Positions 2,252 to 20,000 of a stretch of DNA of 20,000 nucleotides are shown here, in pieces. The position numbers and the translations under genes are program-made. Position 1 is the stretch's first letter, and every line of letters starts with the position of its first letter. Source of the stretch: an uncultured virus (IMG/VR IMGVR_UViG_3300028833_006000) (Duplodnaviria; Heunggongvirae; Uroviricota; Caudoviricetes); the IMG/VR virus record IMGVR_UViG_3300028833_006000; one strand, 5' to 3'. Under the pieces are notes generated by a model. That model worked only from the letters and a program-made list of their open reading frames with translations, ran no database searches and was not told the DNA's origin.

Positions 2252-3106
2252 ATGTCCGGCACATTCAATATTGCTACCACAAATCCGCATCTTAATCCAA
2301 ATCATACAAACCATGTCATATCATGGTCCGGCGGTAAAGATTCAACCGCCACTGTCATCCTGTTCCATGAGCATGAAAATGAACTGTTAAAACAGGGTGA
2401 CACAGTTACCATATTATTTGCCGAAGTCATGTTTGACCTGAAAAGAAACATCTCAGGTCACAATCCCCAGATCATCAAGTTCATATATGAAAAAAAACAG
2501 ATTTTTGAATCATGGGGTTACACCGTTCAGATACTCCGCGCAGACACAGATTATCTGGATAATTTCTGGCATAAATTAAGCCGTTCGCCAAAACCAGAAC
2601 GTGTCGGCAAGACATGGGGCTTCGTGCCGGGCGGCATATGTGCAATCAAACGTGACTGCAAATTGAAACCTATCAACCAATGGAATGAACAGCACGCAAG
2701 GGATAATCGCATACAATATATAGGTATTGCCATCGATGAACCCTCTCGTTTAGAAGCTGTTCATAAACAGCCTGATCAAATATCCCTTCTGGAAAAATAT
2801 GGTTATACAGAAAATGATGCCATGAACCTATGCAGGAAATATAACATGGTATCACCCCAATATTCTATGGAAGGCTTGAAGCGAGATGGCTGCTGGTTCT
2901 GTCCAAATGCAAAACTGTGTGAACACAAAGCGATATACAAAGAAATGCCAGCTGTCTGGCAGGAATATGTAGCTTTGGAACAAACGCCTAATCTGGCGTA
3001 TCCTAAATGGAATCCATACACCACGCAGACACTGAAGGACCGTGATGAACTCATCCGAAAAGAAGTTCTGGCAGAACAACAAAATGCTATGGATAAACCA
3101 TCGTAA
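2252..3106 (+). CDS. PAPS/APS reductase-family (PP-loop adenine nucleotide alpha-hydrolase) protein with Fe-S-type Cys motifs
   Basis: SWSGGKDS PP-loop, GICAIKRDCKLKP, YIGIAIDEPSR, C-terminal RDGCWFCP. Confidence 0.85.
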   Translation: MSGTFNIATTNPHLNPNHTNHVISWSGGKDSTATVILFHEHENELLKQGDTVTILFAEVMFDLKRNISGHNPQIIKFIYEKKQIFESWGYTVQILRADTDYLDNFWHKLSRSPKPERVGKTWGFVPGGICAIKRDCKLKPINQWNEQHARDNRIQYIGIAIDEPSRLEAVHKQPDQISLLEKYGYTENDAMNLCRKYNMVSPQYSMEGLKRDGCWFCPNAKLCEHKAIYKEMPAVWQEYVALEQTPNLAYPKWNPYTTQTLKDRDELIRKEVLAEQQNAMDKPS

Positions 3107-3161: not shown

Positions 3162-3405
3162 ATAACACGAATCCTGGTAGACCAGGTTGAGCCCCGGAGA
3201 TAACGATGGGGGTTTATAAAATTATTCACTGTTCAGACTCTAACTGTTTTCCGGTGCAGGTGAAAAGACTGAGAACACTGGGCTACAGCTGAATGCTCAA
3301 TAGTGCATCGTGGCCATAAGGACGGAAATCCGGAAACGGCTCCGTTCGTATAAGGGCAATCTCAAAAATATCCGCTCCGCAAGGACTTGTGTAGCGGTGT
3401 GTTAT
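3162..3405 (+). ncRNA. Candidate structured RNA or cis-element of unknown class
   Basis: At least six stems in an intergenic stretch, including GAAA and GCAA tetraloop hairpins, closed by ATAACAC (3162-3168)/GTGTTAT (3399-3405). Confidence 0.55.
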
Positions 3406-4153
3406 GACAAACAGAAAAATCATATGGTATAGCTGTGGAGTATCATCAACAATTGCAGGGCTTCTCGCAGACAGAAATGGTGCTGCAGAATGGATCAGAA
3501 TCTTCCTTCCCAACGAAGACACAGACTCTGAACGCTATTTAGATGACTGTATAAAAAGATTCAACATCAATGTACAGACTATCACAGCCAACAAAAACGT
3601 TGACGAAGTTATCTTGAAGAGGAAATTCATCAACTCTCCTTTTGGTGCTCCCTGCACTTCTGTGCTTAAGAAAGAAGTCAGATTCGCCTGGGAGAAAGAA
3701 AACATCAAAGATGATGATCACATCACATACGTCTGGGGTTTCGATGTCAACGAAGCTCACAGAGCGAAAAGGATGATTGAGAGTTATCCACAGTTTGACC
3801 ATGAGTTTCCTCTCATTGATAACGGACTCACAAAAGCCGATTGCCACGGCATCATCAAAGCACTTGGCGTAAAAAGACCAAGAATGTATGATATGGGCTT
3901 TCCTAACAATAACTGCATTATGTGCGTTAAAGGCGGAATGGGATCTTTCAACCTGTTCAGACAGTACTTCCCCGAACAGTTTGACAAAAGAGCGCAGACT
4001 GAACGCCAGATAGGACATTCATGCCTCAAAAAGTGCTTTCTTGATGAACTCCCGGAAGACGCCGGAAGAAAACCGAAAACAATACCGCAGGATCTTACCG
4101 TGACAGGCGAAGCGGCTTTGCAAATCATAAACAGCAATCTGGAACAAAAATAG
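3404..4153 (+). CDS. Second PAPS-reductase-family protein (mobile-element type, degenerate PP-loop)
   Basis: WYSCGVSS PP-loop variant, APCTSVLKK, VWGFDVNEAHR, FPLID, GFPNNNCIMCVKGG. Confidence 0.8.
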   Translation: MTNRKIIWYSCGVSSTIAGLLADRNGAAEWIRIFLPNEDTDSERYLDDCIKRFNINVQTITANKNVDEVILKRKFINSPFGAPCTSVLKKEVRFAWEKENIKDDDHITYVWGFDVNEAHRAKRMIESYPQFDHEFPLIDNGLTKADCHGIIKALGVKRPRMYDMGFPNNNCIMCVKGGMGSFNLFRQYFPEQFDKRAQTERQIGHSCLKKCFLDELPEDAGRKPKTIPQDLTVTGEAALQIINSNLEQK

Positions 4154-5843: not shown

Positions 5844-6455
5844 TCAACCTCCTGGATATTCTATTGTATCACTTGATTCCGGTGTTGTCTGCAAATCATT
5901 AACTAATTCATCTGCCGTGCGATTTGTATCTCCGGATGGCTGTGATACTGCTTCACTTTCCGGTGCAGCGGTCTGCGTATCAGTAGTCGTAGTTTCAGTA
6001 GGTGTAGCCTCAGTAACTGTGGCTGTAGGATCAACAACGCCATGCAGATACTCATTTCCACTTCGTTCATGCAGATTATTCTCGGCTGCCTGTTTATCAT
6101 TATACCAGTGAACGCCCTGTGAAACGCCATATGCCATAGTTGCAAATATAGTAACACGCTTGCATATAGTCTTCCAAGGTGAATCCGTATCGACGTCATC
6201 ATCGACGCCACGAATATGATTGATGATTCCCGGTGCCGTACTTACACCAAAAGCGCCTATGAGACCAGCAAGCCCAGGCTGTAAACTTTTTCCTGTACCT
6301 GCTTCTACGGCATTATTGATCATTGTGCCGACGCCATATCCGATGCCAGCTTTCAGACCAAACTTTGCCATAGAACCAATACCTGATCCGATGCCGGAAA
6401 ATGTCTCGCCGGCGTATTGTGTAATTTTCGCACCTATATTGCTAAATGCTCCCAT
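5844..6455 (-). CDS. Putative membrane protein with Gly-rich hydrophobic helices and a Thr/Ser/Glu-rich tail
   Basis: GxxxG-rich segments (GIGSGIGS, GIGYGVG, GLAGLIGAFG), TPTETTTTDTQT tail, SD AGAAAGGA upstream. Confidence 0.8.
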   Translation of the reverse strand: MGAFSNIGAKITQYAGETFSGIGSGIGSMAKFGLKAGIGYGVGTMINNAVEAGTGKSLQPGLAGLIGAFGVSTAPGIINHIRGVDDDVDTDSPWKTICKRVTIFATMAYGVSQGVHWYNDKQAAENNLHERSGNEYLHGVVDPTATVTEATPTETTTTDTQTAAPESEAVSQPSGDTNRTADELVNDLQTTPESSDTIEYPGG

Positions 6456-6477: not shown

Positions 6478-6897
6478 TTATACAAAAGGCAAATCATCCG
6501 GATTTTCGACATCAACCGGTACAGCAGGAACTTCCCGCTGTGCATTTGTTTGTGAATCCAGATCAAGATTGTTCGCCTTATCATTCTTGACTAACTGTCT
6601 TGACTGATTATAGAGTTCCTTAAACTTTCTGATGCCCATTTCCTCAGTGTGAAAATGTACCTCATCATCATAAAAACGTACATGAGCCTTTATATTTTCC
6701 TGAATAACAAATGTAGTCAGCTTTGGATTAGTCGGAACGGACTTCTGCTGAACACCATATCCCTGAGGAATAAATGCTTTTGCCCATCCCGTCGCAGAAT
6801 TCTCACTACGGAAACGTATACCGTATTGATTCTTATATGTATCCACGCCCCAGACATTTGAAATCGTCACCATTTGTGACTGTGGTTTCTTAGGCAT
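6478..6897 (-). CDS. Hypothetical protein with SSB-like acidic C-terminal tip (DDLPFV)
   Basis: SD GGAGG; beta-rich-looking N-terminal region; ends ENPDDLPFV. Canonical SSB OB-fold motifs are not recognisable. Confidence 0.75.
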   Translation of the reverse strand: MPKKPQSQMVTISNVWGVDTYKNQYGIRFRSENSATGWAKAFIPQGYGVQQKSVPTNPKLTTFVIQENIKAHVRFYDDEVHFHTEEMGIRKFKELYNQSRQLVKNDKANNLDLDSQTNAQREVPAVPVDVENPDDLPFV

Positions 6898-6911
6898 ATC
6901 ACAAACCCTCC

Positions 6912-7859
6912 TTATGCTTCTAATCCGTTCTGTGGTTCGGTGCTACCTGCCTCAGCGATCACGGGTAATTCTCTATCTGAATAAAGCGCTTCCGTCGGAA
7001 AACCTTCGACATTCTTCAAAGATTCGATAAACTTCTTTTCGCTCGGCTTGAGAGGCACATCACATGCAATCTTGGCAAGTTTATCAACATATTCATTGCC
7101 TTCGATACCTGTGTGGCCTTTTGTGTGGACAAAATCTACAGCCAAGCCTGTCATGCGCACAGACTTGACAAAATCGAGATAGTCCTTCGTGTACGGTGTG
7201 CCGGGCTTATACACTCCGGAAGGAATGTCGCCGATATGTCTCAAGTCATACCCAATTGTAACAGAGTCATATTTACCCTGTCTATATCCCTCAAGAGCAT
7301 AATTCAAAGCGACTTTTGCGCCCAGGATCTCGCTCTCAATATTACGACCGCCATACTCGCATTTAATCTTTCCGGTAAAAATACGAGGATTCTTTTCATC
7401 GGCTACATATACACCATAGCCGGCTTCGTTCGTATTCTGATTATAACTTCCATCGGTAAAGATCCACACATGATTACCCGCATATTCTTTCAAAAGTGGG
7501 TTATCCGCAGACTCTTGCTCGGAAACTTCAGTCTTTGTCGGAACAACGCCTGTCTCGACATATTTTTCGGCTTCAGACTTATACTCAAAGCTCTTATACT
7601 GAGCACCAGGAAAACCGTTTACCTGCTCCTTGCATGTATCCCAGTCAAGATAGACTCCGGGTACACGGCCTTTATGTACGGCATAAAACTTGCCCTTTGC
7701 TTCGGTTGCGCCTAAATATTCCTGTGCTGATGCTTCATCGGGAAAACCCTTGTACTGGGCACCGGCGAAGCCATCGACCTGAGCTTTACAATCATCCCAC
7801 GATGTGTATAATCCCGGTGTGCGCCCTTTCAAGACCGCATAAAACTTATTCTTTGCCAT
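6912..7859 (-). CDS. rnhA: Ribonuclease HI with two N-terminal hybrid-binding (caulimovirus viroplasmin-like) domains
   Basis: Two copies of KFYAV.KGR.PG.Y..WD.CK.QV.GF.GAQYK.F. Catalytic residues in FTDGS, ESEILG, GYDL, KGHTG..GNEYVDKLAK. Start revised to ATG 7859 (SD AGGAGAG). Confidence 0.92.
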   Translation of the reverse strand: MAKNKFYAVLKGRTPGLYTSWDDCKAQVDGFAGAQYKGFPDEASAQEYLGATEAKGKFYAVHKGRVPGVYLDWDTCKEQVNGFPGAQYKSFEYKSEAEKYVETGVVPTKTEVSEQESADNPLLKEYAGNHVWIFTDGSYNQNTNEAGYGVYVADEKNPRIFTGKIKCEYGGRNIESEILGAKVALNYALEGYRQGKYDSVTIGYDLRHIGDIPSGVYKPGTPYTKDYLDFVKSVRMTGLAVDFVHTKGHTGIEGNEYVDKLAKIACDVPLKPSEKKFIESLKNVEGFPTEALYSDRELPVIAEAGSTEPQNGLEA

Positions 7860-7990
7860 AAAACTCTCCTCTATACAAAACAAAGGATCACCGGAGGCTA
7901 TGTCTCGGCAATCCCCTGTTTATCATATCGAATAAAAATTTCTATCAGTGATATTTTATTCAGCTGATCACCACACGGTATTGATCTGTA

Positions 7991-8767
7991 TTAAGACAAT
8001 TCTGTCTGTGCAGAGATGCCATCAGTTCCGTCCATCTGGATATCAGCTGTGAGTTCAGCTGCGGCTGCATAACGAGCATCACCTGTCATTGCATCAGGTG
8101 TTGCAGGTGCGGCATAACGAGGATCACCTGCCATTGCATTAGGTGCTGCCGGAGCCTCATAACGAGGATCACCAGCCATTGCATTAGATGTCTGCGCAGC
8201 CTGTCTGCCCTCGTAAACTTCCTCTCTCACAGAAGAAGGTGTATTTTCCGGCAAATCAGCTGTTGCTGCCATAACCTGTTCCTGATATGTAGGACCTTCA
8301 GCAGCTTCTGTTTCCTCGTGCTGAACATCACCCATCTCAGCAGCCATTGCCTTGATCTCAGCAAACTTCTGACCAAGACTTGTCTTGGCGAAAGCATCCT
8401 TGATGCTGGCTGTCACATCATGCACACTGTCTTCGATCTTATCGATACCGTGAGCTTCCTTCCAGTCAGCCACAGCTTCAAATTTATTTGCGATAGCCAA
8501 CTTCTTTGTATCTTCACCGAATGCATTGGTCTGAAGAGTCTGAACTTCCTCATTGTACTTCTCCTCAGTAATAGCACCGTTCTCCAGCGCATGGTCAAGA
8601 TCGTTCTTGCTGTCCACGTATTCATTGATAGCGCGAATAGGCGCCATTATATGATCATACGCTGCAGTAGCCTTGCTATATGCAGATGCGATCGTTGTGG
8701 TAACGCCACCAGCCTTTGGTGCTTCTGCTTCTGTAGTTTCAGTTGTCTGATTAGTATTGTCAGCCAT
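7991..8767 (-). CDS. Hypothetical acidic Ala/Glu/Thr-rich helical protein with C-terminal 15-aa repeats
   Basis: SD AGGAGG, its own promoter, 258 aa. Confidence 0.85.
   Translation of the reverse strand: MADNTNQTTETTEAEAPKAGGVTTTIASAYSKATAAYDHIMAPIRAINEYVDSKNDLDHALENGAITEEKYNEEVQTLQTNAFGEDTKKLAIANKFEAVADWKEAHGIDKIEDSVHDVTASIKDAFAKTSLGQKFAEIKAMAAEMGDVQHEETEAAEGPTYQEQVMAATADLPENTPSSVREEVYEGRQAAQTSNAMAGDPRYEAPAAPNAMAGDPRYAAPATPDAMTGDARYAAAAELTADIQMDGTDGISAQTELS
8061..8187 (-). repeat. Three tandem 45-bp (15-aa) coding repeats
   Basis: CATAACGAG recurs at 8068, 8113 and 8158; peptide NAMAGDPRYEAPAAP / NAMAGDPRYAAPATP / DAMTGDARYAAAA. Confidence 0.9.
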
Positions 8768-8847
8768 TGTATATTACCTCCTATGGATTATCTACTCATC
8801 TTAAAAAATCATAACACAAATATGTGTGGTCATTTTTGACTGTCTAT

Positions 8848-8876
8848 ATAATATATAATATGGCGTGGCTTGTCAA
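8848..8876 (-). promoter_or_regulatory. SigA-like promoter
   Basis: TTGACA (8876-8871), 17 nt, TATTAT (8853-8848). Confidence 0.7.
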
Positions 8877-8916
8877 GAGATTTTCCAAAAAAAGTTGAAA
8901 AAAATTCAAATCATTA

Positions 8917-8968
8917 TAAAAAATAACACCGCTCATATCTCATTTCATCGAGAAAAGTGGTGTTATTT
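8917..8968 (-). terminator. Rho-independent terminator after the 8972..9667 gene
   Basis: AATAACACCGCT ... AGTGGTGTTATT outer stem with inner TCTC/GAGA; the A run on the left gives a - strand U tract. Confidence 0.6.
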
Positions 8969-8971
8969 GTT

Positions 8972-9667
8972 TTAAGATTCGATCTGTTTTTGTATGTTCT
9001 CTGACCTCAAATCATATATCTTTTGCCTAAAATCCTGCGGCAATACCACACTCACCAGAACCTGTTCCCGGTTAGATATACGTTTATATCGAAGCTCAAA
9101 ATCTGATCCAAATTCCAATCGGTCATCAGTTGGTTTGATATACTCTATCCGTAAGCCATTGATGGCAACTTCAATCGCATCACGCTTCTCATCATAATGT
9201 GTTTCAAATGTTCGCGTGGTCAATGTTTCCGCATTTGCGACCAAAGCCTTATGCTTCCTCGCTTTATATGCTTCCATCGCCCACAATATCAACATGAATA
9301 CGCCATATAATACATAAAATACCACAAGAAATAATATGACTATGACCAGCGCTATAACTGGTATGGCCGGTTCTACAGCTGACATGATCTTTGTCATCGC
9401 AGGCGGCAGATTTGGTGAAGAATATATCAATCCTATGCCTGATAGCATGCACAGGCTTCCCAGAATCAATTTAACCAGTGGAATACATCGTGATACATAT
9501 CCATATGATAAAAATGCTCGCAATATTCGAAATACTGCAAGCATAATCAGGATTGCTCCTATAGATATCAACAATGCACCGCCGAATACAGTTGGCTGTT
9601 GAAACAATGAATATGCATCTCCATGCAATAACTCATCCGAAGGAACAATAGTCTGTGTCAATAACAT
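8972..9667 (-). CDS. Membrane protein (about three TM helices plus a soluble C-terminal domain)
   Basis: Three long hydrophobic segments; 231 aa; start uncertain because the SD is weak. Confidence 0.75.
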   Translation of the reverse strand: MLLTQTIVPSDELLHGDAYSLFQQPTVFGGALLISIGAILIMLAVFRILRAFLSYGYVSRCIPLVKLILGSLCMLSGIGLIYSSPNLPPAMTKIMSAVEPAIPVIALVIVILFLVVFYVLYGVFMLILWAMEAYKARKHKALVANAETLTTRTFETHYDEKRDAIEVAINGLRIEYIKPTDDRLEFGSDFELRYKRISNREQVLVSVVLPQDFRQKIYDLRSENIQKQIES

Positions 9668-9678
9668 ATCAGGGTATA

Positions 9679-9927
9679 TTACACAGACTCCATCTTCGCC
9701 TTCAACTTGCCAAGCATCTGGTCTTTCTTTGCAGGATCGCCAACGGTCTCATCGACAACAGTTGCTGCTTCTGCATAAGCTACCACATTCGACATGAGCT
9801 TGCTCATCGCAGGATTCTTCTGAGCTGCTGCTTCATCAGCCATCCTCTCGAAAGCCTGTCCCAAAGGCGTAGATCTGTCAATCTGCATATTCTCCTTATC
9901 AATAACGATATTATCTGTTCCTGGCAT
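9679..9927 (-). CDS. Small hypothetical helical protein (82 aa)
   Basis: Start revised to ATG 9927 (SD GAAAGGAG at 9942-9935). Confidence 0.75.
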   Translation of the reverse strand: MPGTDNIVIDKENMQIDRSTPLGQAFERMADEAAAQKNPAMSKLMSNVVAYAEAATVVDETVGDPAKKDQMLGKLKAKMESV

Positions 9928-9967
9928 ATTAGTCGCTCCTTTCAGAATAAATTGTTCCAACACTCAA

Positions 9968-9996
9968 AATATAGCAAAAATCTCCTCATTTGTCAA
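9968..9996 (-). promoter_or_regulatory. SigA-like promoter with extended -10
   Basis: TTGACA (9996-9991), 17 nt ending TGC, TATATT (9973-9968). Confidence 0.7.
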
Positions 9997-10019
9997 CAGA
10001 TTTGGCATAGATCCAAGCT

Positions 10020-10283
10020 TTACAAATCAGAAATTTCCACAACAGGCTCTGACCTGCTGACATCTGCCATCTGCTCCAAATGTGCTTTCGTCTGAACCAA
10101 AGCCAAAATCGTACGCACAACGTCATCATCCTGAGGCTGATATGATTTCAAATATGATATGGCATCTGACACAGCTTTGATATCACGCTCAAATGCCATT
10201 GCACCAGATAATTCCCTCGGTGCTGCATCATGTATGATCAATGGCTCATCTAAATTTATCACAGGTTCTGTCATCGAACTCAC
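10020..10283 (-). CDS. Hypothetical protein, translationally coupled to the upstream protease gene
   Basis: GTGA start/stop overlap at 10283-10280; 87 aa. Confidence 0.7.
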   Translation of the reverse strand: MSSMTEPVINLDEPLIIHDAAPRELSGAMAFERDIKAVSDAISYLKSYQPQDDDVVRTILALVQTKAHLEQMADVSRSEPVVEISDL

Positions 10284-11104
10284 CCCTTCAAAAATGAAAA
10301 TGTTATTTCCGAATATTCAGGTTTCTCGCTAAGCAATTTGATCACGTTCTCAGCATGTTCTGCCTGAAGCTTCATCCGCCATGTCTTGCTATCCTTATGG
10401 AAAAAGAAGCCGTCAGCTTTCAACAAATCTTTCTGGTCATATGTCCGACCCGTGGCCTGGATATATGTAATAGCCGAAACATGCATCTCAGATGCCGACT
10501 GTTTATAATATTCCCGGCAGCCGATGGACGCCAGAAATGAAACTTCCGCCGATTCATCATCTATCTGCTTCTCCCAAACCTGCTCAATGGAATTCCACCT
10601 ATAACCAGCAGCTTTCAGATGCTCACGCTGTTCATAACAATTCTTAACGCAGATAATCTCATCTGACGGCAATGTATAATCAATCGCGTGTGGTACATAT
10701 GCGTCCATGATCCTGCGGACTTTATTCTGGTCCGATGACCATGTGTCATGGTAAAAATCATCGACCGTAAGAATACCCATATCGATAGCCGCATATGCCA
10801 AACGAGCATATGCCTCATAGAAAGGAGCCTGATGTCCTGTATTTCCGTGAAGCATCTGATCAATATGGTGTGAAAGCTCATGGATGCAGCATTTTGCCAT
10901 ATGCCTCTGCCCCAGACGAGCATTGTACACCTGTATATGTTTTGTCTGGGAATTATACATTCCGGAGCTGGACTTGACTTCCTTTGGCATTATCTCAATC
11001 GTATAGGTATGCAACGGAAGTCTCATCGGTCCTTCAACATCAGCATATGCAACATCAATGATATCATCCATGATACGCTTAATCCGCTTATCCAACGTGT
11101 TCAT
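10280..11104 (-). CDS. SprT/zincin-like HExxH metalloprotease with two small C-terminal LK..G[YF]...W repeats
   Basis: CCIHELSHH..GHQAPF motif; repeats YEQREHLKAAGYRWNSIEQVWEK and YDQKDLLKADGFFFHKDSKTWRM; SD AGGAGG. Confidence 0.75.
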   Translation of the reverse strand: MNTLDKRIKRIMDDIIDVAYADVEGPMRLPLHTYTIEIMPKEVKSSSGMYNSQTKHIQVYNARLGQRHMAKCCIHELSHHIDQMLHGNTGHQAPFYEAYARLAYAAIDMGILTVDDFYHDTWSSDQNKVRRIMDAYVPHAIDYTLPSDEIICVKNCYEQREHLKAAGYRWNSIEQVWEKQIDDESAEVSFLASIGCREYYKQSASEMHVSAITYIQATGRTYDQKDLLKADGFFFHKDSKTWRMKLQAEHAENVIKLLSEKPEYSEITFSFLKG

Positions 11105-11161
11105 ACAAAAAACAACACCTCCTGCTCATTCATAACGGAGGGCAATCAAACATCCCGAACC

Positions 11162-11344
11162 TTATGGTTCAAGAAAAAGATCAGGATCAACCATTTCATC
11201 AATGTTGTCCCAGTCATCATATTCATCTTCCTGCTCTGCTGCTTTCAGGTCGCCGGCATGGCCATCACTCAAAAACTTATAAAACAGATATGCGACCATT
11301 CCAATAAAAGAAATAACCAAACAACATTTGAAAAAATTCTTCAT
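11162..11344 (-). CDS. Small single-TM protein with acidic tail
   Basis: SD GGAGGA 7 nt before ATG 11344; MKNFFKCCLVISFIGMVAYLFYKF followed by a D/E-rich tail. Confidence 0.7.
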   Translation of the reverse strand: MKNFFKCCLVISFIGMVAYLFYKFLSDGHAGDLKAAEQEDEYDDWDNIDEMVDPDLFLEP

Positions 11345-11395
11345 GAAATCATCCTCCATCGATATGCTGACATGATATGGTATCGTACACTCTTT

Positions 11396-11424
11396 AATAT
11401 ATCATAAAACATCTCATAAATCAA
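11396..11424 (-). promoter_or_regulatory. SigA-like promoter with extended -10
   Basis: TTGATT (11424-11419), 17 nt ending TGA, TATATT (11401-11396). Confidence 0.55.
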
Positions 11425-11435
11425 CATATTTCAAC

Positions 11436-11477
11436 AAAAAGCGGAGAGGCCCGTCACGCTGATAACGAAGCCTCTCC
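11436..11477 (-). terminator. Rho-independent terminator
   Basis: GGAGAGGC (11443-11450)/GCCTCTCC (11470-11477) stem followed on the - strand by GCTTTTT. Confidence 0.75.
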
Positions 11478-11503
11478 AGAAAGGAACACATATTGGAACC
11501 CGT
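11436..11503 (-). ncRNA. Candidate ~68-nt sRNA with an anti-Shine-Dalgarno segment
   Basis: Lies between a near-consensus promoter and a terminator; contains AUAUGUGUUCCUUUCU immediately 5' of the terminator stem. Confidence 0.6.
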
Positions 11504-11509
11504 GAAAGA

Positions 11510-11538
11510 ATTATACCACAATATCCTGTGTTTCTCAA
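11510..11538 (-). promoter_or_regulatory. Near-consensus SigA promoter driving the candidate sRNA
   Basis: TTGAGA (11538-11533), 17 nt ending TGTGG, TATAAT (11515-11510). Confidence 0.75.
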
Positions 11539-11545
11539 ATAGTTT

Positions 11546-14203
11546 TTAAGGTTTTGTATAAGAATATTTTCCCCATTCACTCTTCGTGCCGTCAGACATT
11601 ACAGACTGAACACGGAAATAATATGTCCTGCCGGATTTCATACCACTAATGATAACCGAAGTACCGGAAATTGACATCGATGCCATCTTGGAAGAATATG
11701 ATGCGTTGCTATAAATCTCGACATTGTATGACGATGCCGATACAACAGCGTCCCACATCAAACGCATCTTACCATCATTCGCACTCTTCACAACAATATT
11801 CTGTGGAACCTTAGATGTCACAACAGGCTGTGTCGAACCACCTGATCCTGAGGATCCATATTTATACGAGCATGTAGTCCAAGGACTCTGAAGGCCTGTT
11901 GCACTAATGGCTCTCACACGAACATAATATGTTGTGCCGGACTTGATACCATTGATACGAAGAACAGTGCCTGTTACAGATGTCTTTGCGATCGTTGACG
12001 CGAAGTTTGAATCCTTACTGATCTCAATTGCATATGATGATGCATTAGGTACGCTTGACCATGTAGCCCTTGCAATCGTACTGTCAACGCTCTCTACAGA
12101 CACCTTCGCCGGAGCGGATATAGTTGTTGTGCTTGCGCTGTCAGGCAGATTCTCTGAAGAAGAATCTGACACAAACTGGATGCGCAGATAAGTCCAATCA
12201 CTTAAAGCACCATCGGCACCGACTGACTGCAAGCAGACATAATAAGTTCTGTTCGCTTTAATGCCGGTAAGGTTAAATACCGTACCGCTTGTGTTCAAAT
12301 TGCCTGCAACAGTACCGTTCTCAGAATCGATACGCACATAGACATTGGTAGATTTAGCTGCAGAGCCTGCTGTCCATGTAATGCGTGCTGATGAGTCTGA
12401 AGACTTCGTATATGCTGCATTTGTAGGAGCACCAAGCGTTACGGTCTGATCACCATTATCCTCTTCCGTATTTGTCGGATTTATTACAAGCGATGTCCAA
12501 TCCGAATACGTAGTCTTACCGCTCACATATCGATATGCGCGCACATATGCATACAATGTCATATCACGGCTATATCCTGTGATATGGACCTTTGTTGTGT
12601 TGGCATTCATTGCCACAAGCTGATCAGTCTTATTTGCATCCCTATACAGATAAATTGCATATCCGGACGCATTAGACACCGTATTCCATGCCAGATCAAT
12701 AGTGGAATCGGTCACATCAGTTATCTTAAAGCCTGTGGGCGCATCCAATGCAGTTTCACTGGTATCATTACGAATCGTGAAATTGCCATTCACATAAGTA
12801 ACCTGGGCCCACTCTGAATAATAGGTTGTGCCATTGTCTGTACCAACTGTACGAATCTTAATCTTCAGATTTCGCCCGTTCACATTCGTGATCTTGATAT
12901 GATTCAAAACAACAGACATGGAACCGATCAGATTACCGGTATTATAGTTATATGCCTGGATCTCATAATTAGCTGCACCGGGAACATCTGACCAAACAAG
13001 TTTTACACTATCTTCTACTGCATCATACATTCCGTACAGATTATATGGTGCATCAAGGGCGATGGCACCTGCCGGATGTGTACCTGTTGAGTCATAATAT
13101 GTAGGCACATAGTCCGTTGTTGACACGGTAGGAACCCAAGAAGATGACCATGTGGACGCAACTACATGTTCTCTGGATGAAGTATCAAATCTCTTCAAAT
13201 TCGCATTGGATACATTGAAGAAATAATAGTCACCAAGGGAATCATCCCATGTTGCATCTACAGCATAATATTTATTGTCATCAAGCCTTACGACATTCCA
13301 TGCATGGCTATCAGATAACACCGTCATTGTGTCAATACCCATAGCATTGCACATCATCGTCATAACTTCGGAATATCCCGCACATACTGTCTTGTGCTGG
13401 ATCAAAGTGGAATATATGGACTGATCATATGCCCCAGTCACATACTCCGTGTAATCACGCAGCATATTATGTGCGGCACGTTCCATCATATACGTGGTGG
13501 CGCCGGCAGAAGAACATGTTGCGATCCAACTATCTAATTCAGCAAAAAGGGCGTCAGTGGTAGCTGCTCTGGCTGAACCAGAAGCAAAAGCATCATAAAT
13601 GGTAAACCAGATATTCGTAGATGTTGTTAAGAATACCGATGATGCGAAATAATACTGTGGATTGTTATACAGGAACAACTGTGCCACAGCAAAAGCCTGC
13701 TGTTTCGTCAAACCGTACTCTGAGAAATTGATACTGCTTGTCACATAATAAGAGTAGCTTGTTGTGGAATACTTCGTGGCATCCACGTTTGAGCTATTCA
13801 GATATACAGATAAAACACTATCATAAGCGTCATACAACGCTCTTTCGTTTGCTGATAATCTTGATCTTAATGTCGGGGACACATAAGCGGAATAATCATG
13901 CGATCCATAAAAATCACCGCTAATGGCTCCTGCATATGATTCGTTGATAATTGCCTGGTCATCAATACCCTGGCCTGCTGCCACGGAGATACTGACAATT
14001 TCAGGCTCCAACGCTCCTTCCTCCAATGTTGCATCACTTACAATACCTGATGCTTCCTCAAATGAAAATTCACCTGAGATACCTGCGTCGTCATCGCCTG
14101 CCGCGTATACGGGCATTGACCCGAAAGACATCGAACAGGCCATGAGCGCTGCCAAAGCGCCGCTGGACAATCTCGCCCAAAATTTGTGCAGTTTCATAGA
14201 CAT
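11546..14203 (-). CDS. Secreted transglutaminase-like (Cys-His-Asp) protein with about five fibronectin type III domains
   Basis: Signal peptide ending ..PVYA; VCAGYS / SHAWNVV / AVDATWDD triad; repeated AP..W..V..A..Y.I..Y..RVRA..S.W Fn3 units. Confidence 0.88.
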   Translation of the reverse strand: MSMKLHKFWARLSSGALAALMACSMSFGSMPVYAAGDDDAGISGEFSFEEASGIVSDATLEEGALEPEIVSISVAAGQGIDDQAIINESYAGAISGDFYGSHDYSAYVSPTLRSRLSANERALYDAYDSVLSVYLNSSNVDATKYSTTSYSYYVTSSINFSEYGLTKQQAFAVAQLFLYNNPQYYFASSVFLTTSTNIWFTIYDAFASGSARAATTDALFAELDSWIATCSSAGATTYMMERAAHNMLRDYTEYVTGAYDQSIYSTLIQHKTVCAGYSEVMTMMCNAMGIDTMTVLSDSHAWNVVRLDDNKYYAVDATWDDSLGDYYFFNVSNANLKRFDTSSREHVVASTWSSSWVPTVSTTDYVPTYYDSTGTHPAGAIALDAPYNLYGMYDAVEDSVKLVWSDVPGAANYEIQAYNYNTGNLIGSMSVVLNHIKITNVNGRNLKIKIRTVGTDNGTTYYSEWAQVTYVNGNFTIRNDTSETALDAPTGFKITDVTDSTIDLAWNTVSNASGYAIYLYRDANKTDQLVAMNANTTKVHITGYSRDMTLYAYVRAYRYVSGKTTYSDWTSLVINPTNTEEDNGDQTVTLGAPTNAAYTKSSDSSARITWTAGSAAKSTNVYVRIDSENGTVAGNLNTSGTVFNLTGIKANRTYYVCLQSVGADGALSDWTYLRIQFVSDSSSENLPDSASTTTISAPAKVSVESVDSTIARATWSSVPNASSYAIEISKDSNFASTIAKTSVTGTVLRINGIKSGTTYYVRVRAISATGLQSPWTTCSYKYGSSGSGGSTQPVVTSKVPQNIVVKSANDGKMRLMWDAVVSASSYNVEIYSNASYSSKMASMSISGTSVIISGMKSGRTYYFRVQSVMSDGTKSEWGKYSYTKP

Positions 14204-14269
14204 GACCCCTTTCTGCTAAAATATTTTGTTAAAATTGCGTAAAAAACACCACTGTCGCAGTTTATATAT

Positions 14270-14299
14270 AATATATAAGCAAAAAATGAAACTTGTCAA
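14270..14299 (-). promoter_or_regulatory. SigA-like promoter for the Fn3 gene
   Basis: TTGACA (14299-14294), 18 nt, TATATT (14275-14270). Confidence 0.6.
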
Positions 14300-14314
14300 G
14301 ATGGTAAAACGCCG

Positions 14315-14340
14315 AAAATCGCCGGGAAACCCCGACGATT
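14315..14340 (-). terminator. Terminator-like hairpin downstream of the 14426..15241 gene
   Basis: On the - strand, AATCGTCGGG-GTTT-CCCGGCGATT (10 bp, one GU) followed by a short T run. Confidence 0.5.
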
Positions 14341-14425
14341 CACGGAATTCTATCTCATTTATGAGATGAAACATTGTGTGCAATTTTTTCAAACAAAATT
14401 CGATCAAAAAAAGCAATTTTTGCTA

Positions 14426-15241
14426 TTAGAAAGGCAAATCGGTATGATCTGCCGATCTGGCATCATCTGTCGGAACATCAGGAAGCGGACGATCAGACTG
14501 TACTTTTTCTCTGATTTCGTTCTCACATTCAGTGCATCTCTGATATGTAGCCTCTTCAAACACCTTCCACGCATCAGCTGCAACCTCATTCACATAAACA
14601 CTCACGAAAGAATGGCCGCCTGAAAGACAACCTCTAATGGCATATGGATCAAAATTCGCATAATAGTCTTTCCTGTCAATCTCATCAGTGATGATAAATC
14701 TGTCGTCGTCATCCCACCTTACGTTCGCATTCTTGTCCTGTAATTTCTTGGTCAAATCCTTCAGCACAGCGTTCGGATCCTGAAATCTGACAGCATCAGA
14801 CTCAGTTTCAGCAATTGCAGTCATCGCCTGATCAGGCGTACACTGATAATTCGTTCCCAAAACAGGATACATATTATCACCTTGTTTTACATAAAGCACA
14901 GAATGTCCAAATTTGTTCGGCTCAATAATATGCTCGTGCAAAGACTTTGTCCAATCAGCATAATGAAATGCGCCGTCCTTGGTCTGATGTGTTGCATCAT
15001 AAGTACCGGCCGCAGTTGCGCCTGGCTTAAAACGCCTGAGAGCTTCTTCTTCCGTTATCAAACCTGAGAAACACTCGCCAAAACTATTACGCTTGCCGAA
15101 CTGATACAATTGCTTGGCTACTTCCACATCGCTACACTCTACGCGCGCATGCGGGAAATCGCCATAGATTCCATCGTCTTTGAGCAAGATCCAAGTCTGT
15201 GAACCAGATTGTGATACTCTTTTGCCATCAAGTTTTCCCAT
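14426..15241 (-). CDS. Hypothetical protein ending in an SSB-like DLPF tip
   Basis: SD GAGGTGA; 271 aa; ends SDRPLPDVPTDDARSADHTDLPF. Confidence 0.85.
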   Translation of the reverse strand: MGKLDGKRVSQSGSQTWILLKDDGIYGDFPHARVECSDVEVAKQLYQFGKRNSFGECFSGLITEEEALRRFKPGATAAGTYDATHQTKDGAFHYADWTKSLHEHIIEPNKFGHSVLYVKQGDNMYPVLGTNYQCTPDQAMTAIAETESDAVRFQDPNAVLKDLTKKLQDKNANVRWDDDDRFIITDEIDRKDYYANFDPYAIRGCLSGGHSFVSVYVNEVAADAWKVFEEATYQRCTECENEIREKVQSDRPLPDVPTDDARSADHTDLPF

Positions 15242-15286: not shown

Positions 15287-16891
15287 TTAAATGCCGCCAG
15301 GATCCACATCACCCTCTGCCGGAGGCAAACCGGGTTCTTCGATTCCGAGATCCATATTGAGCATACGGCGCTCCTTTGAAATGTTGATGTCCGTACGCAC
15401 GAACTCCACGTTCATATCTTCATCGTACAGGCCAGCGCAGTCCTTCAATTTGCCTCGGATCGTGGTCTCCATATCCATCTTCGTAATAAACTTTTCCACC
15501 ACGAGTTCTTCGCCTGACAACAATCTGCGACACTCGTCCGGCGTGAAGGTGTGCGAGCCATAAACCCTGTGGAAACTGATACCATTTATGACATTCTTGG
15601 ACTCCAATCCTGAATAATACCAGTTACCGATAACAATCTCTTCGTCCTCATCATCATTATCAAATTTCATTTCGGGATGCTTCATCCTGACAGCAATAGT
15701 CGCCTCAAGGTATTTCCTCTCCCACTGCTGTATCTCATCTTCGTCAGGGAACGAATCCACGAATAGCTCCGGATGAAATTCCCTCAGAGAATACAATGTA
15801 TCGTTCTCATTCCTCTGGAACTTGCCATAATAAGGATTTCCCTTTGCGCCTTCCCAATCATTGATGGCGTAGCACTCAGGATACCACTGCAGCTCACCGC
15901 TTCTGCTCGCCAAGATAAAACCTGTCTCAGGATTAGCATTATAGATATCATCTGTCAATGCTCCGACACGATACTCATTGTGCCCGAGAATCTTATGGAT
16001 TTTTTCAAATGTTGCTTGATCTTCTGCATTTGCAAGCGCAAGGATGATTGCCTGGTCAGCCAAAGACTCAATCGTCTTGGCGTCCGATGACTCCAAATCC
16101 TCGTCCATGAACGGAATATCGTCTTCAGGCAGATAATTGCGCAATGACTGATAAATGCTTTTATTGATGCTGATCTGATCTTCAACAGAAATGGAATCAT
16201 ACGCATCAGCCTTTATTGCCACGAAAATGTCCGCCGTATCCGACATATATCTGTAATCTTCGGCACTCAGATTATATTCCTTAATCTGCCTTGCGATTTC
16301 CAGATTATCCTTATACCACTTGGATTTCTGCATATCCTCGGAATTAACTACAAATACACGAAATCCGCTGTTTGACAAACCATGTGCTACTGAATAATCA
16401 TCTTGCTTAATTTTCCAATAACGGTCTGCTTTGTGGCGGTCCATAAAGCAAGAATGATAGCACCTTTCGATAAGGCTCACGCCCTTTTCCGGGTTCATGA
16501 TATGCTCTGCTACAAGATATCTGACATCCTTATCGTCAATCTCTGATACATAATACGTCTGTCTGATTGGTTCCCTTCCACGCACCTCATAATAATACCT
16601 GCGTTTCTTGGTATTCACGCCGAACAGAATAACAGGCAGTGGGTTCATATTGAGATCCGAAGGCACACGTAGCCTGTACTTGCCATCTTTCTGCAGTAAA
16701 GCATAAATCGAACCCTGTGTGTACTGTGTATCGATAAGATGTTCAATGGCAGCGAAAATATCATATGCAATCAATGCTTCAGGCTTATCGATTACATATG
16801 ACTGGTGTTCCTTCATCTGGCGCATATCAATTTGAACTTCGCCATCCGGAGAAGTTTTTACGAATTTCGATAAAACATAATTGCGTACCAT
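15287..16891 (-). CDS. Large hypothetical protein with a C-terminal topoisomerase-C-terminal-repeat-like segment
   Basis: SD AGAGGA; 534 aa; ISFHRVYGSHTFTPDECRRLLSGEELVVEKFITK...IRGKL near the C-terminus. Confidence 0.8.
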   Translation of the reverse strand: MVRNYVLSKFVKTSPDGEVQIDMRQMKEHQSYVIDKPEALIAYDIFAAIEHLIDTQYTQGSIYALLQKDGKYRLRVPSDLNMNPLPVILFGVNTKKRRYYYEVRGREPIRQTYYVSEIDDKDVRYLVAEHIMNPEKGVSLIERCYHSCFMDRHKADRYWKIKQDDYSVAHGLSNSGFRVFVVNSEDMQKSKWYKDNLEIARQIKEYNLSAEDYRYMSDTADIFVAIKADAYDSISVEDQISINKSIYQSLRNYLPEDDIPFMDEDLESSDAKTIESLADQAIILALANAEDQATFEKIHKILGHNEYRVGALTDDIYNANPETGFILASRSGELQWYPECYAINDWEGAKGNPYYGKFQRNENDTLYSLREFHPELFVDSFPDEDEIQQWERKYLEATIAVRMKHPEMKFDNDDEDEEIVIGNWYYSGLESKNVINGISFHRVYGSHTFTPDECRRLLSGEELVVEKFITKMDMETTIRGKLKDCAGLYDEDMNVEFVRTDINISKERRMLNMDLGIEEPGLPPAEGDVDPGGI

Positions 16892-17629: not shown

Positions 17630-17669
17630 TAACCCTATATATTATAATATATAGGGTTAATCGAGTCAA
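17630..17669 (-). promoter_or_regulatory. Consensus promoter overlapped by a 30-bp perfect palindrome (putative operator)
   Basis: TTGACT (17669-17664), 17 nt, TATAAT (17646-17641); palindrome TAACCCTATATATTATAATATATAGGGTTA at 17630-17659. Confidence 0.75.
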
Positions 17670-18394
17670 CAATCGACGTGAATAAATAAGCTTTGAAAAA
17701 TAAGTCTGAGTACCTTAATGCCGTCTCGAATCGTGGATAATTTCGAATAACTGCCTTCCGGGCGATCCCTGTACGGAACAGGCATTGTGCCGATATGTAG
17801 CCCCTTCTTCAGTGCCAAAATTGTCATTTCGGTTTCCACTTCGAAGCCGTCTTTTGTCAAACCGATATTCTTCACGAATTTGCGGTCAAACGCCCGATAG
17901 CCTGTCATGACATCTGTGATGTTCGTGGGCTTCTCTTGGATCACATCTATCGCACGTCCACGAAAAAGATGATTCACCAGCCACTTAACTGTACTGTTAC
18001 CGATACCGTGAAACCTGCGGGTGTTATCCTCATAATAATTCACCGATAGTCGGTCTCCGATGACCATATTGCAAGCCATATTATCCAAATAATAAAGCAT
18101 CTGTTGCGCCAGTTCCGGCGGATAAGTATCATCAGCATCGACCATCAGATACTTATCAGCGTCGATCTCTTCGAACATCTGCTTAACGACAGCGCCCTTA
18201 CCCTGTATTGGGCACTCTCTCACAATGGCTCCGCATTTCCTCGCAATCTCTGCTGACAAGTCCGTTGAATTATTATCATACACATAAATATCTGCCTGGG
18301 GAACGGCATTTCTAAAATCATCAATCACCTTACCTATCGTAAGTTCCTCATTATAACAGGGAATGAGGATTGCCACTGTCTTACCATCACTCAT
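17666..18394 (-). CDS. Family 2 glycosyltransferase (polyprenol-phosphate glycosyltransferase, DPM1/GtrB-like)
   Basis: ILIPCYNEE, VYDNNSTD, QGKG, MVDADDTY (DxD), DVMTGYRAF, FEVETEMT, YRDRPEGSYSKL. Start revised to ATG 18394 (SD GAAAGG), overlapping the end of the upstream gene. Confidence 0.92.
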   Translation of the reverse strand: MSDGKTVAILIPCYNEELTIGKVIDDFRNAVPQADIYVYDNNSTDLSAEIARKCGAIVRECPIQGKGAVVKQMFEEIDADKYLMVDADDTYPPELAQQMLYYLDNMACNMVIGDRLSVNYYEDNTRRFHGIGNSTVKWLVNHLFRGRAIDVIQEKPTNITDVMTGYRAFDRKFVKNIGLTKDGFEVETEMTILALKKGLHIGTMPVPYRDRPEGSYSKLSTIRDGIKVLRLIFQSLFIHVDC

Positions 18395-20000
18395 GCAAAT
18401 CTGCCTTTCTGTACAGAATATGATAATCATCGCTGACGGATTCAATCATTTCGTAATCGTCCCTCTGAAGCATATATGCTGCCAAAAATGTCTCTGCCAT
18501 AGGACTGACGATCACATAGTCAAAATCATAACTATCAAACCATGTTGTCAGCTCCTCAGCAGATACAGGCTGACCGGTCTTGATCGACGACTTCGACGTA
18601 GGCGACACGAGATGAACATCATACCCATAAACACAATATTTACTGTAATCTATCAAAATATCTTTATCGCCGGTAAATGCTGACATATACAATTCCGGAC
18701 GAGCATCGATATAAAGATTCTTAAAGCCCATATATTCAAAATAGGCTCCATCGTTAAAACCTGTGAAGATATGCATATCCTCGTTATAATCCTGCTTGAT
18801 CACTTCGACTATAGCAGGTAGATTTGTCTCCGTGCCGTTCTTTCCAGCAAATACATCCTCACAGGATGACAGAAAGTTGGTCACGAATATCAAGTCTGCA
18901 AACAACATCACAGGCACGATATATACCTTCAAATCCTTTTTCCAGTCAATCGAAATAGTCTTTTTGCCCAATGCTGCGAGAATATCCCTTGCCGTAAATG
19001 CCATTACAAAGATGCAACAGGTATTGTTGCGAATGGCCATCATCATCATAAAGCAAAATCCTACGACCATATTTATTGTAGTAGACCTGAGACAACCCAG
19101 TTTCCATGCTGCCAAGAACAGTGCGATGCACAGGAAAATGGTTGCGCCCTGTGGTGAAATAAATGTGGTCGGATTGACTTCCAAAACAGGAACATAATCA
19201 AACGTATGCGATCTGAACGAATTGATCAGATACATCGCTCCACCAACGCCGTAAGGATTGATGAACAATGTTCCAAGCATTGCTATCATAGCTACTATCA
19301 ATTCGATGATTGTCTTAAAATGCTTCTTTGGATGAATGAGCAACGAATCATCTTCAATCGTCTTATCGAATGGCTTAAAATAAAACGCCGGTACGGCATA
19401 AGCCAGAATTATTGCAAAATGTATGATCCACATCGAAAGATGAAGCTGCATCTCCAGGCACATCGCAATCGGCAATCCTATAAGCCATGCACCCTTAAAT
19501 GTCTGCCTGAACTTCTCCATACAAATACATGATGCAAGGATCAGAATCATTGTCACAAGCTGCGGCCTTGTTGAAAACAGATAGTCCTGGGCTGGCATAC
19601 TGAGCATGACAAGCGCAAGTAGTGACAATTTCTTCGGTACGCCTCTGAGCGAGAAGAAATACAGCCACAAACACGTAAAAATTACAAACTGCAATGCAAT
19701 GAACGCAGAAAAACCTGCATACCCGGCTTTATCCACAAGCGCCAAAATAACAGCATACAGCCATTGCTGTACCACAATACCCTGCTCCGGATCTATCGTC
19801 CATATATTCGTATGGGGAATACCGTTCTCCAGAATCTCACGGCCCGTGGCAATGATAAAATACATATCCGAATCATAAACGGAACAGACAATTCGTTCCA
19901 GAAGATAAAACAATGGAATCAGCAAGAACAATACATAAAACAGCTTCTCACTAATAGGTTTCTCGCCAAAAGATTTGATTTTTGTAATTGTAGAACTCAT
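18387..20000 (-). CDS. Polytopic membrane protein, probable GT-C-fold glycosyltransferase
   Basis: About 10-12 TM segments; acidic DSD motif after TM1 followed by ATGREIL; RPQL, INPYG and IDARPELY motifs; coupled to a GT2 gene. The start lies at the window edge. Confidence 0.7.
   Translation of the reverse strand: MSSTITKIKSFGEKPISEKLFYVLFLLIPLFYLLERIVCSVYDSDMYFIIATGREILENGIPHTNIWTIDPEQGIVVQQWLYAVILALVDKAGYAGFSAFIALQFVIFTCLWLYFFSLRGVPKKLSLLALVMLSMPAQDYLFSTRPQLVTMILILASCICMEKFRQTFKGAWLIGLPIAMCLEMQLHLSMWIIHFAIILAYAVPAFYFKPFDKTIEDDSLLIHPKKHFKTIIELIVAMIAMLGTLFINPYGVGGAMYLINSFRSHTFDYVPVLEVNPTTFISPQGATIFLCIALFLAAWKLGCLRSTTINMVVGFCFMMMMAIRNNTCCIFVMAFTARDILAALGKKTISIDWKKDLKVYIVPVMLFADLIFVTNFLSSCEDVFAGKNGTETNLPAIVEVIKQDYNEDMHIFTGFNDGAYFEYMGFKNLYIDARPELYMSAFTGDKDILIDYSKYCVYGYDVHLVSPTSKSSIKTGQPVSAEELTTWFDSYDFDYVIVSPMAETFLAAYMLQRDDYEMIESVSDDYHILYRKADLHE

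What the first reader, a model, noticed from the sequence alone, without database searches (positions are those of the whole stretch)
6478..14491. Shared C-terminal tag R-x-[LV]-P-x-[VI] plus acidic tail on three unrelated proteins: candidate sorting or translocation signal
Seen: the SSB-tail protein ends REVPAVPVDVENPDDLPFV (6478-6537), RNase HI ends RELPVIAEAGSTEPQNGLEA (6912-6974) and the 271-aa orphan ends RPLPDVPTDDARSADHTDLPF (14426-14491). The Arg sits 19, 20 and 21 residues from the C-terminus. Each is followed by an acidic disordered spacer and a Leu 3-4 residues from the end, and two are preceded by SD. The proteins otherwise look unrelated, and the RNase H tail lies outside the catalytic fold. 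Known: type IV secretion substrates often carry unstructured C-terminal signals, and conjugation systems can co-transfer proteins. Inference: this element may tag a set of proteins, including nucleic-acid-acting ones, for delivery into a recipient cell, for virion packaging, or for docking on a common hub protein.
Basis: partly seen in the sequence, partly recalled or inferred. Interest (0 to 1): 0.8.

Follow-up and report, generated by a model that had tools for sequence, protein, structure and literature searches.

The report
Shared tail tag on plasmid proteins
Several unrelated proteins of a giant, probably self-transmissible plasmid from ruminant gut bacteria end in the same short peptide tag, which evolution keeps at a fixed distance from the protein end and which most likely labels them for delivery into the recipient cell during mating, though that is untested.

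Summary
The three tails are as described. On the window alone they could be chance: 9 of 120 shuffles give as good a triple. Relatives show they are real. Of 20 RNase H homologues found with the catalytic domain only, 11 carry R-x-[LIVM]-P-x-[VILM] 18-22 residues from the end while the linker turns over; one carries a second form, R-x-A-x-E-L, at the same place. That second form also ends two more genes of the same four-gene unit. A syntenic relative links the window to giant MobL/coupling-protein plasmids that encode an RNA-polymerase-like protein. One complete 251-kb member carries the motif on 5 of 262 unrelated ORFs (0.7-0.8 expected); six other members are not enriched. Best reading (0.5): a lineage-specific label for conjugative protein transfer. 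Against: 4 of 5 relaxases lack it, the window's own transfer genes were not seen, no receptor was found. A Clp-degradation tag is the main rival. 'SSB' is unsupported for the 139-aa protein. The scan reported a like tag on other DNA before (e1-8009976).

The parts
6520..6537 (-). Form A motif REVPAV, Arg at -19, on the 139-aa protein (gene 6478-6897); followed by acidic linker and DDLPFV end
   Evidence: kept in 4 of 5 homologues (P0005, L026, L030, L028), degenerate in L032; tail pLDDT under 50
6957..6974 (-). Form A motif RELPVI, Arg at -20, on RNase HI (gene 6912-7859), outside the catalytic domain
   Evidence: 11 of 20 homologues form A, 1 of 20 form B
14474..14491 (-). Form A motif RPLPDV, Arg at -21, on the 271-aa protein (gene 14426-15241); DLPF end
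   Evidence: DRPLPDVP kept in 2 of 3 homologues including a 179-aa form that lost about 90 residues; third has HQSPNIPV
5904..5921 (-). Form B motif RTADEL, Arg at -25, on the 203-aa glycine-rich protein (gene 5844-6455)
   Evidence: RTADEL kept in L029, L026, L030 at 27-60% overall identity
8051..8074 (-). Form B-like motif RYAAAAEL, Arg at -27, on the 258-aa acidic protein (gene 7991-8767)
   Evidence: looser counterparts in L029, L028, L026; weaker than the others
6912..7859 (-). RNase HI with two N-terminal hybrid-binding (Cauli_VI) domains, tagged cargo candidate
   Evidence: Pfam PF01693 E 6e-42, PF00075 E 9e-10
6478..6897 (-). 139-aa beta-rich protein with a long helix and a disordered tail; fold unassigned
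   Evidence: model mean pLDDT 79.6; no Foldseek match at E<=0.001; best VIA Z 4.7
14426..15241 (-). 271-aa protein of unknown function
   Evidence: 3 homologues besides itself; no Pfam/NCBIfam hit; no usable Atlas hit
8848..8876 (-). Near-consensus sigma-70-type promoter-like site heading the four tagged genes 8767->5844
   Evidence: TTGACA-17-TATTAT, 11 of 12; consensus match only, 35 sites found against 26 in shuffles

Best explanation
The tail is a short linear address label: an Arg-led six-residue motif (form A R-x-hydrophobic-P-x-hydrophobic; form B R-x-A-x-E-L), an acidic/polar disordered spacer of about 12-16 residues and a hydrophobic residue near position -3. It is appended to otherwise unrelated proteins of a giant MobL-type conjugative plasmid (shown: motif, position, selection, family link by transitivity). 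[quoted passage not shown] Different lineages of the family appear to use different tail versions.
For: (1) Selection and position: 11 of 20 RNase H homologues found with residues 125-288 only carry form A at 47-98% domain identity; with the window and the form-B row, Arg lies 18-22 from the C-terminus (sd 1.3) but 5-10 from the domain end (sd 2.2); linker columns have about 0.1-0.2 pairwise identity; -3 is hydrophobic in 11 of 12. (2) Interchange: form B replaces form A at the same place in L028/P0157, nested in a 100/99 clade with four form-A rows (one event). (3) Four consecutive co-oriented genes all carry A or B. (4) Independent replicon G792: 5 of 262 ORFs vs 0.7-0.8 expected, P about 0.001; loose form in 7 of 48 ORFs of one minus-strand block (limits chosen after viewing) vs 1 of 214 elsewhere. 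(5) Family: L029 shares five orthologues with the window (60-80%) and carries a three-gene block whose best hits are G792 (48, 52, 38%) and other members; G792 encodes MobL (E 2e-53), a weak VirB4-like pair, a peptidoglycan hydrolase and a coupling protein; L033 has a coupling protein 1.6 kb from an RNase H of this subfamily. (6) In G797 A-like and B-like tails sit on five proteins just downstream of the coupling protein, starting with the DFDGD-bearing polymerase-like protein. (7) C-terminal signals on conjugation substrates are established (PMC3297438 section 16; PMC11288057 passages).
Against: The window's own contig (103 kb) could not be read, so its transfer genes are unseen; the link is through L029. 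Relaxases of G792, G797, G793 and pGKT2 lack the motif; only G796 matches the pattern and its G795 counterpart lacks the Arg. Six of seven complete family members show no enrichment of form A (0 of 199, 1 of 114, 1 of 146, 1 of 125, 1 of 94, 1 of 175; pGS01 4 of 271 vs 1.3-1.5; counting G792 as the one enriched). Chromosomal controls are slightly above expectation (3 of 332 vs 0.8-1.0, P 0.05-0.08). Eight of 20 RNase H homologues have neither form, so the tag is dispensable or variable. Tails are net negative (-1 to -5), unlike VirB/D4 signals. The 203-aa protein may be membrane-associated (hydropathy peak 1.41).
Confidence: 0.5

Rival explanations
1. The tail is a degradation or unfolding tag read by the plasmid's own Clp-like ATPases and ClpP, setting the lifetime of potentially harmful proteins such as RNase H inside the host, with no transfer.
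For: Family members encode two Clp-like ATPases and G792 a ClpP (E 5e-91); a fixed distance from the C-terminus with a free spacer suits a tether-plus-degron design (recalled from ssrA/SspB, no call).
Against: The last residues are not conserved (pairwise identity 0.08-0.27 at -1 to -3), whereas known C-terminal degrons fix the very end (recalled); tagged genes sit next to transfer and polymerase genes in G797 and G792.
Confidence: 0.2
2. The motif docks several proteins on one intracellular hub (the plasmid's polymerase-like protein, a replisome part or a PxxP-binding module) to build a replication/transcription complex in the resident cell.
For: Form A often reads R-x-hydrophobic-P-x-hydrophobic-P, like a class I SH3 ligand (consensus recalled, no call); tagged proteins include RNase H and an exonuclease-like protein in G792.
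Against: The second Pro is present in only 4 of 12 RNase H rows; form B has no Pro yet substitutes; a docking motif need not keep a fixed distance from the C-terminus; in E. coli SSB the PxxP motifs proved dispensable (PMC10164576, passages).
Confidence: 0.15
3. Two of the tails are SSB-tail mimics (acidic, ending L-P-F) that bind host SSB-interacting enzymes; the shared Arg motif is incidental.
For: All 4 members of the 271-aa family end LPF or LPFH and all 6 of the 139-aa family keep P-F/W at the end.
Against: The window's 139-aa protein and 3 of its 5 homologues have a residue after the aromatic one, whereas the terminal Phe carboxylate is what SSB partners bind (PMC10164576, passages); RNase H tails lack PF yet keep the Arg motif; acidic tails ending in F/L are common on transfer-region proteins of the family.
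Confidence: 0.07
4. Coincidence: independent low-complexity acidic tails with no common reader, conserved only by descent.
For: Window-only test not significant; most family members not enriched.
Against: Motif kept while the spacer turns over in three protein families; A-to-B swap in register; enrichment on non-orthologous proteins in G792.
Confidence: 0.05
5. Virion packaging signal of a phage.
For: Family members are filed in IMG/VR.
Against: Those records carry coupling proteins and MobL relaxases; window proteins found no relative in viral contigs.
Confidence: 0.03

Closest known systems
C-terminal translocation signals of type IV secretion substrates (Agrobacterium VirB/D4 positive tails; Legionella Dot/Icm hydrophobic tails; F-system substrates)
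   Same: Short, unstructured, C-terminal, on unrelated proteins; conjugation systems co-transfer proteins (PMC3297438 section 16; PMC11288057 passages).
   Different: Here a defined Arg-x-hydrophobic-Pro motif at a fixed distance, net negative charge, two exchangeable forms, Gram-positive-type MobL plasmid family; no transfer data.
Giant MobL conjugative plasmids typified by Gordonia pGKT2, Rhodococcus pGS01 and Streptomyces NZ_CP109461
   Same: Share the coupling protein (58% with L033), Clp-like ATPase (41-49% with L029), UvrD block and a 1,500-2,000-aa DFDGD protein.
   Different: Their tails differ (pGKT2 transfer-region proteins end GP-x-L-G/A; one has RDLPEG); form A is not enriched there. 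Whether pMP7017 or NCgl1702-type elements belong here was not tested.
SSB C-terminal tip (DDDIPF)
   Same: Acidic end with Pro-Phe on two of the three proteins.
   Different: Extra residue after Phe in the 139-aa protein; no SSB domain found; RNase H tail lacks PF.
Polyvalent proteins delivered during invasion (PMC5512222)
   Same: Idea of nucleic-acid-acting proteins delivered with the element's DNA.
   Different: Separate small proteins with a short tail rather than multidomain fusions; the paper has no hit for 'C-terminal motif' or 'MobL'.

Membership tests
T4SS C-terminal translocation signal | Unstructured element at the C-terminus, outside the folded domain | tested here: met
   RNase H Pfam domain ends at 265 of 315; model tail pLDDT 46-49; Arg 18-22 from the end
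T4SS C-terminal translocation signal | Cluster of positive charge (VirB/D4 type) | tested here: not met
   Net charge after the motif -1 to -5 in 13 of 13 rows
T4SS C-terminal translocation signal | Hydrophobic residue close to the C-terminus (Dot/Icm type; the -3 rule is recalled) | tested here: met
   Hydrophobic at -3 in 11 of 12 form-A RNase H rows
T4SS C-terminal translocation signal | Cognate coupling protein and secretion genes on the same replicon | tested here: inconclusive
   No genome held; present in relatives L033, G792, G797, linked through L029
T4SS C-terminal translocation signal | Same signal on the relaxase (not required: relaxases often use internal signals, PMC3297438) | tested here: not met
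   Absent in 4 of 5 relaxases examined
T4SS C-terminal translocation signal | Necessary and sufficient for transfer of a reporter | not testable with these tools
   Needs a Cre or beta-lactamase transfer assay
SSB with SSB-Ct | OB-fold DNA-binding domain in the 139-aa protein | tested here: inconclusive
   No Pfam/NCBIfam hit; best structural Z 4.7, rmsd 5.8, 82 aligned; alignment only 6 deep
SSB with SSB-Ct | Phe as the very last residue | tested here: not met
   139-aa protein ends PFV; 2 of 6 family members end in F. The 271-aa protein does meet it (3 of 4)
Clp degron | Clp ATPase and ClpP available on the replicon | tested here: inconclusive
   Present in relatives, window's replicon unseen
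Clp degron | Tail-dependent degradation | not testable with these tools
   Needs half-life assays
Class I SH3 ligand (consensus recalled) | Invariant PxxP core | tested here: not met
   Second Pro in 4 of 12 RNase H rows; form B has none

The most novel reading that the evidence does not exclude
Giant MobL plasmids of rumen Firmicutes use a two-form, sequence-defined C-terminal code, read by the coupling protein or a dedicated Clp-like unfoldase in the transfer operon, to send a whole establishment kit (RNase HI, polymerase-like protein and unknown proteins) into recipients; the tag would predict the transferred proteome and serve as a portable protein-delivery signal in gut Gram-positive bacteria.
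Probability: 0.3. Interest if true: 0.8.

Novelty: new variant of a known kind. Interest (0 to 1): 0.55.

Why it matters
How conjugation machines of Gram-positive bacteria choose protein cargo is poorly defined, and the known signals are diffuse. A six-residue motif at a fixed distance, with a natural swap between two forms, gives exact residues to test and a way to list candidate cargo on an uncultured plasmid family common in ruminant guts. If it is a degron instead, it points to a plasmid-encoded proteolysis circuit. No description of this motif came up in my paper searches (listings only, library incomplete). The scan has already reported a like tag, so this adds a second lineage, conservation data and the A/B swap more than a first sighting.

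Tried and rejected
No own genome. Plasmid, viral and genome searches with window proteins gave no close relative; marker and coupling-protein searches in samples of genomes found 0 of 401, 0 of 401 and 0 of 399 (two genomes not scored). pCY360, the best plasmid hit of the RNase H, has 0 of 380 ORFs with form A and was used as a control. Unbiased triple test on the window alone: not significant. 'SD' before the Arg: not conserved, dropped. DNA-repeat origin: rejected. SSB fold for the 139-aa protein: no OB-fold entry among the 50 rows shown, none at E<=0.001; not excluded. ESM Atlas gave no usable hit for either orphan. Co-folding of the C-terminal piece of the G792 coupling protein with a G792 tail returned 'no answer', score 0.00 in two runs; it is no evidence either way. 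A Clp N-domain was considered as receptor, but the transfer-region ATPase starts directly with its AAA module. Papers: PMC3297438 passages and section 16; PMC11288057, PMC5512222, PMC10164576, PMC10832533, PMC7824862 passages only; all others search listings only; no supplements read.
Full report
OBSERVATION. The three tails lie exactly where stated, all on the minus strand. Arg is at -19, -20, -21 and Leu at -4, -3, -3. The RNase HI has two hybrid-binding domains and a catalytic domain ending at residue 265 of 315, so the tail is outside the fold. The motif codons differ between genes and none of the 20 repeat families shown joins the tails: the likeness is at protein level.

IS IT CHANCE? 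With the pattern fixed after the fact, 3 of 21 ORFs match against 0.03-0.10 expected. A fairer test that searches for the best triple of seven-residue words at like distance from the end picks the same three tails, but 9 of 120 shuffles, 18 of 120 pCY360 draws and 38 of 120 chromosomal draws do as well. The window alone therefore does not establish the motif.

HOMOLOGUES ESTABLISH IT. A search with the RNase H domain only (residues 125-288) returned 20 proteins; 11 carry R-x-[LIVM]-P-x-[VILM], 1 carries R-D-A-S-E-L, 8 neither. In the 13 motif-bearing rows (window included) Arg is 18-22 residues from the end and 5-10 from the domain end; spacer columns have about 0.1-0.2 pairwise identity; the spacer is acidic (net -1 to -5); -3 is hydrophobic in 11 of 12 form-A rows (invariance of R and P there is circular, the 11 of 20 is not). 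Within three 90% clusters the motif changed 0-0.06 per site, the spacer 0.08-0.24 and the domain 0.02-0.04. In a tree of 32 domains, 14 rows have form A, 2 form B, 16 none; the two B rows are one event nested in a 100/99 clade with four A rows. The 271-aa family keeps DRPLPDVP in 2 of 3 homologues, one of which lost about 90 residues. The 139-aa family keeps form A in 4 of 5 homologues at 29-91% identity. The four chromosomal RNase H loci printed end without such a tail, and none of the 22 genome loci has the motif on its RNase H.

MORE TAGGED GENES. The RNase H and the 139-aa gene sit in a four-gene minus-strand unit (8767 to 5844) behind a near-consensus promoter-like site. The outer two genes end in form B or a looser version (RTADEL at -25; RYAAAAEL at -27), and RTADEL is kept in L029, L026 and L030. 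Forms A and B align in register (R-D-L-P-D-V against R-D-A-S-E-L).

WHAT REPLICON? No genome is held; the contig is 103 kb. One metagenome scan gave 10 loci, five of them syntenic (L026, L028, L029, L030, L032). Contigs from four other studies cover 28-30 of 30 bins, one 134-kb contig spanning the region apart from one variable gene; three of the four runs are labelled sheep or cattle gut. Close RNase H relatives lie on contigs of up to 363 kb. L029 shares five orthologues with the window and carries a block (unknown, Clp-like ATPase, UvrD) whose best hits are G792 and other members of one plasmid family. The L029 ATPase and the coupling protein of L033 hit the same three cultured plasmids best. 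A coupling-protein alignment found 22 IMG/VR contigs; five were fetched whole with G797, pGKT2 and pGS01. G792 (251 kb, terminal repeats) encodes MobL, a weak VirB4-like pair, a wall hydrolase, two Clp-like ATPases, ClpP, two RNase H and dockerin proteins (48 and 11 further of its proteins scanned, not all). Five members examined share a 1,500-2,000-aa protein with DFDGD, read as a single-chain RNA polymerase (motif meaning recalled). The window's membership is inferred through L029, not seen.

INDEPENDENT TEST. Form A at -12 to -35: G792 5 of 262 (0.7-0.8 expected, P about 0.001), on proteins not orthologous to the window's; G797 0 of 199, G793 1 of 114, G794 1 of 146, G796 1 of 125, G795 1 of 94, pGKT2 1 of 175, pGS01 4 of 271 (1.3-1.5 expected); controls pCY360 0 of 380, chromosomal loci 3 of 332 (0.8-1.0), phage loci 4 of 1304 (1.5-2.7) (ORFs called mechanically). 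In G792 the loose form falls on 7 of 48 ORFs of one block that holds the polymerase-like gene and 1 of 214 elsewhere (block drawn after viewing). G797 has A-like and B-like tails on five proteins downstream of its coupling protein that the strict patterns mostly miss. Other lineages end transfer-region proteins in acidic tails with F/L, or GP-x-L-G. The tag is thus lineage-specific in sequence.

MECHANISM. Shown: a selected short motif held at a fixed distance from the C-terminus on unrelated proteins, with two exchangeable forms. Inferred: a reader that engages free C-termini. The conjugation machine is the best candidate because C-terminal signals on such substrates are established (PMC3297438 section 16; PMC11288057 passages), the carriers include nucleic-acid enzymes useful on arrival (compare PMC5512222 passages), and tagged genes cluster near transfer and polymerase genes. 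Against: 4 of 5 relaxases lack it, charge is negative, most members are not enriched, no receptor is identified. A Clp-dependent turnover tag and an intracellular docking motif remain open.

THE 'SSB'. The 139-aa model is confident in its core but matches nothing at E<=0.001 and has best Z 4.7; its last residue is not Phe. It should not be called SSB on present evidence.

NOVELTY. A new variant of a known kind if it is a transfer signal. My ten paper searches showed no description of the motif in their listings. Its relaxase-tail argument was not reproduced. Interest 0.55.

Noticed in passing
L029 7950-8296: The 139-aa gene is missing in this close relative; only its last few codons remain right after the RNase H stop.
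   Followed up: partly
window 10280-11104: HExxH-bearing 274-aa gene is absent in three of four laid runs, replaced by 11-12 letters; homologues on Clostridium, Priestia, Enterococcus and Listeria plasmids.
   Followed up: partly
window 14410-14736: In run X3 the 3' 325 bases of the 271-aa gene are replaced by 342 other letters; P0003 shows a different C-terminal half that still ends in an acidic LPF tail.
   Followed up: partly
window 8064-8198: Three 45-nt tandem copies inside the 258-aa gene, just before its tail; one copy fewer in run X5.
   Followed up: no
window 2252-3106 and 3404-4153: Two adjacent proteins with weak NCBIfam hits (PRK13795, PRK08557), PAPS-reductase-like by recall; possible DNA modification role.
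   Followed up: no
G792 61020-64553 (L087:4020-7553): Clp-like ATPase between relaxase and coupling protein, without an N-domain and with intein-like insertions, conserved across the family; candidate transfer unfoldase.
   Followed up: partly
G792 33594-58623: The coupling-protein gene is spread in pieces over about 25 kb with other genes, including an RNase H and a tagged gene, between them.
   Followed up: no
L062-L083, L130: At least 23 IMG/VR 'viral' contigs are members of this conjugative plasmid family, probably misfiled.
   Followed up: partly
window 15287-16891: The 534-aa protein shares a roughly 70-residue C-terminal region with an exonuclease of G792 (E 9e-8) and proteins of G797 and pGKT2.
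   Followed up: no
window 17666-20000: Family 2 glycosyltransferase next to a multi-pass membrane protein; possible surface modification pair.
   Followed up: no
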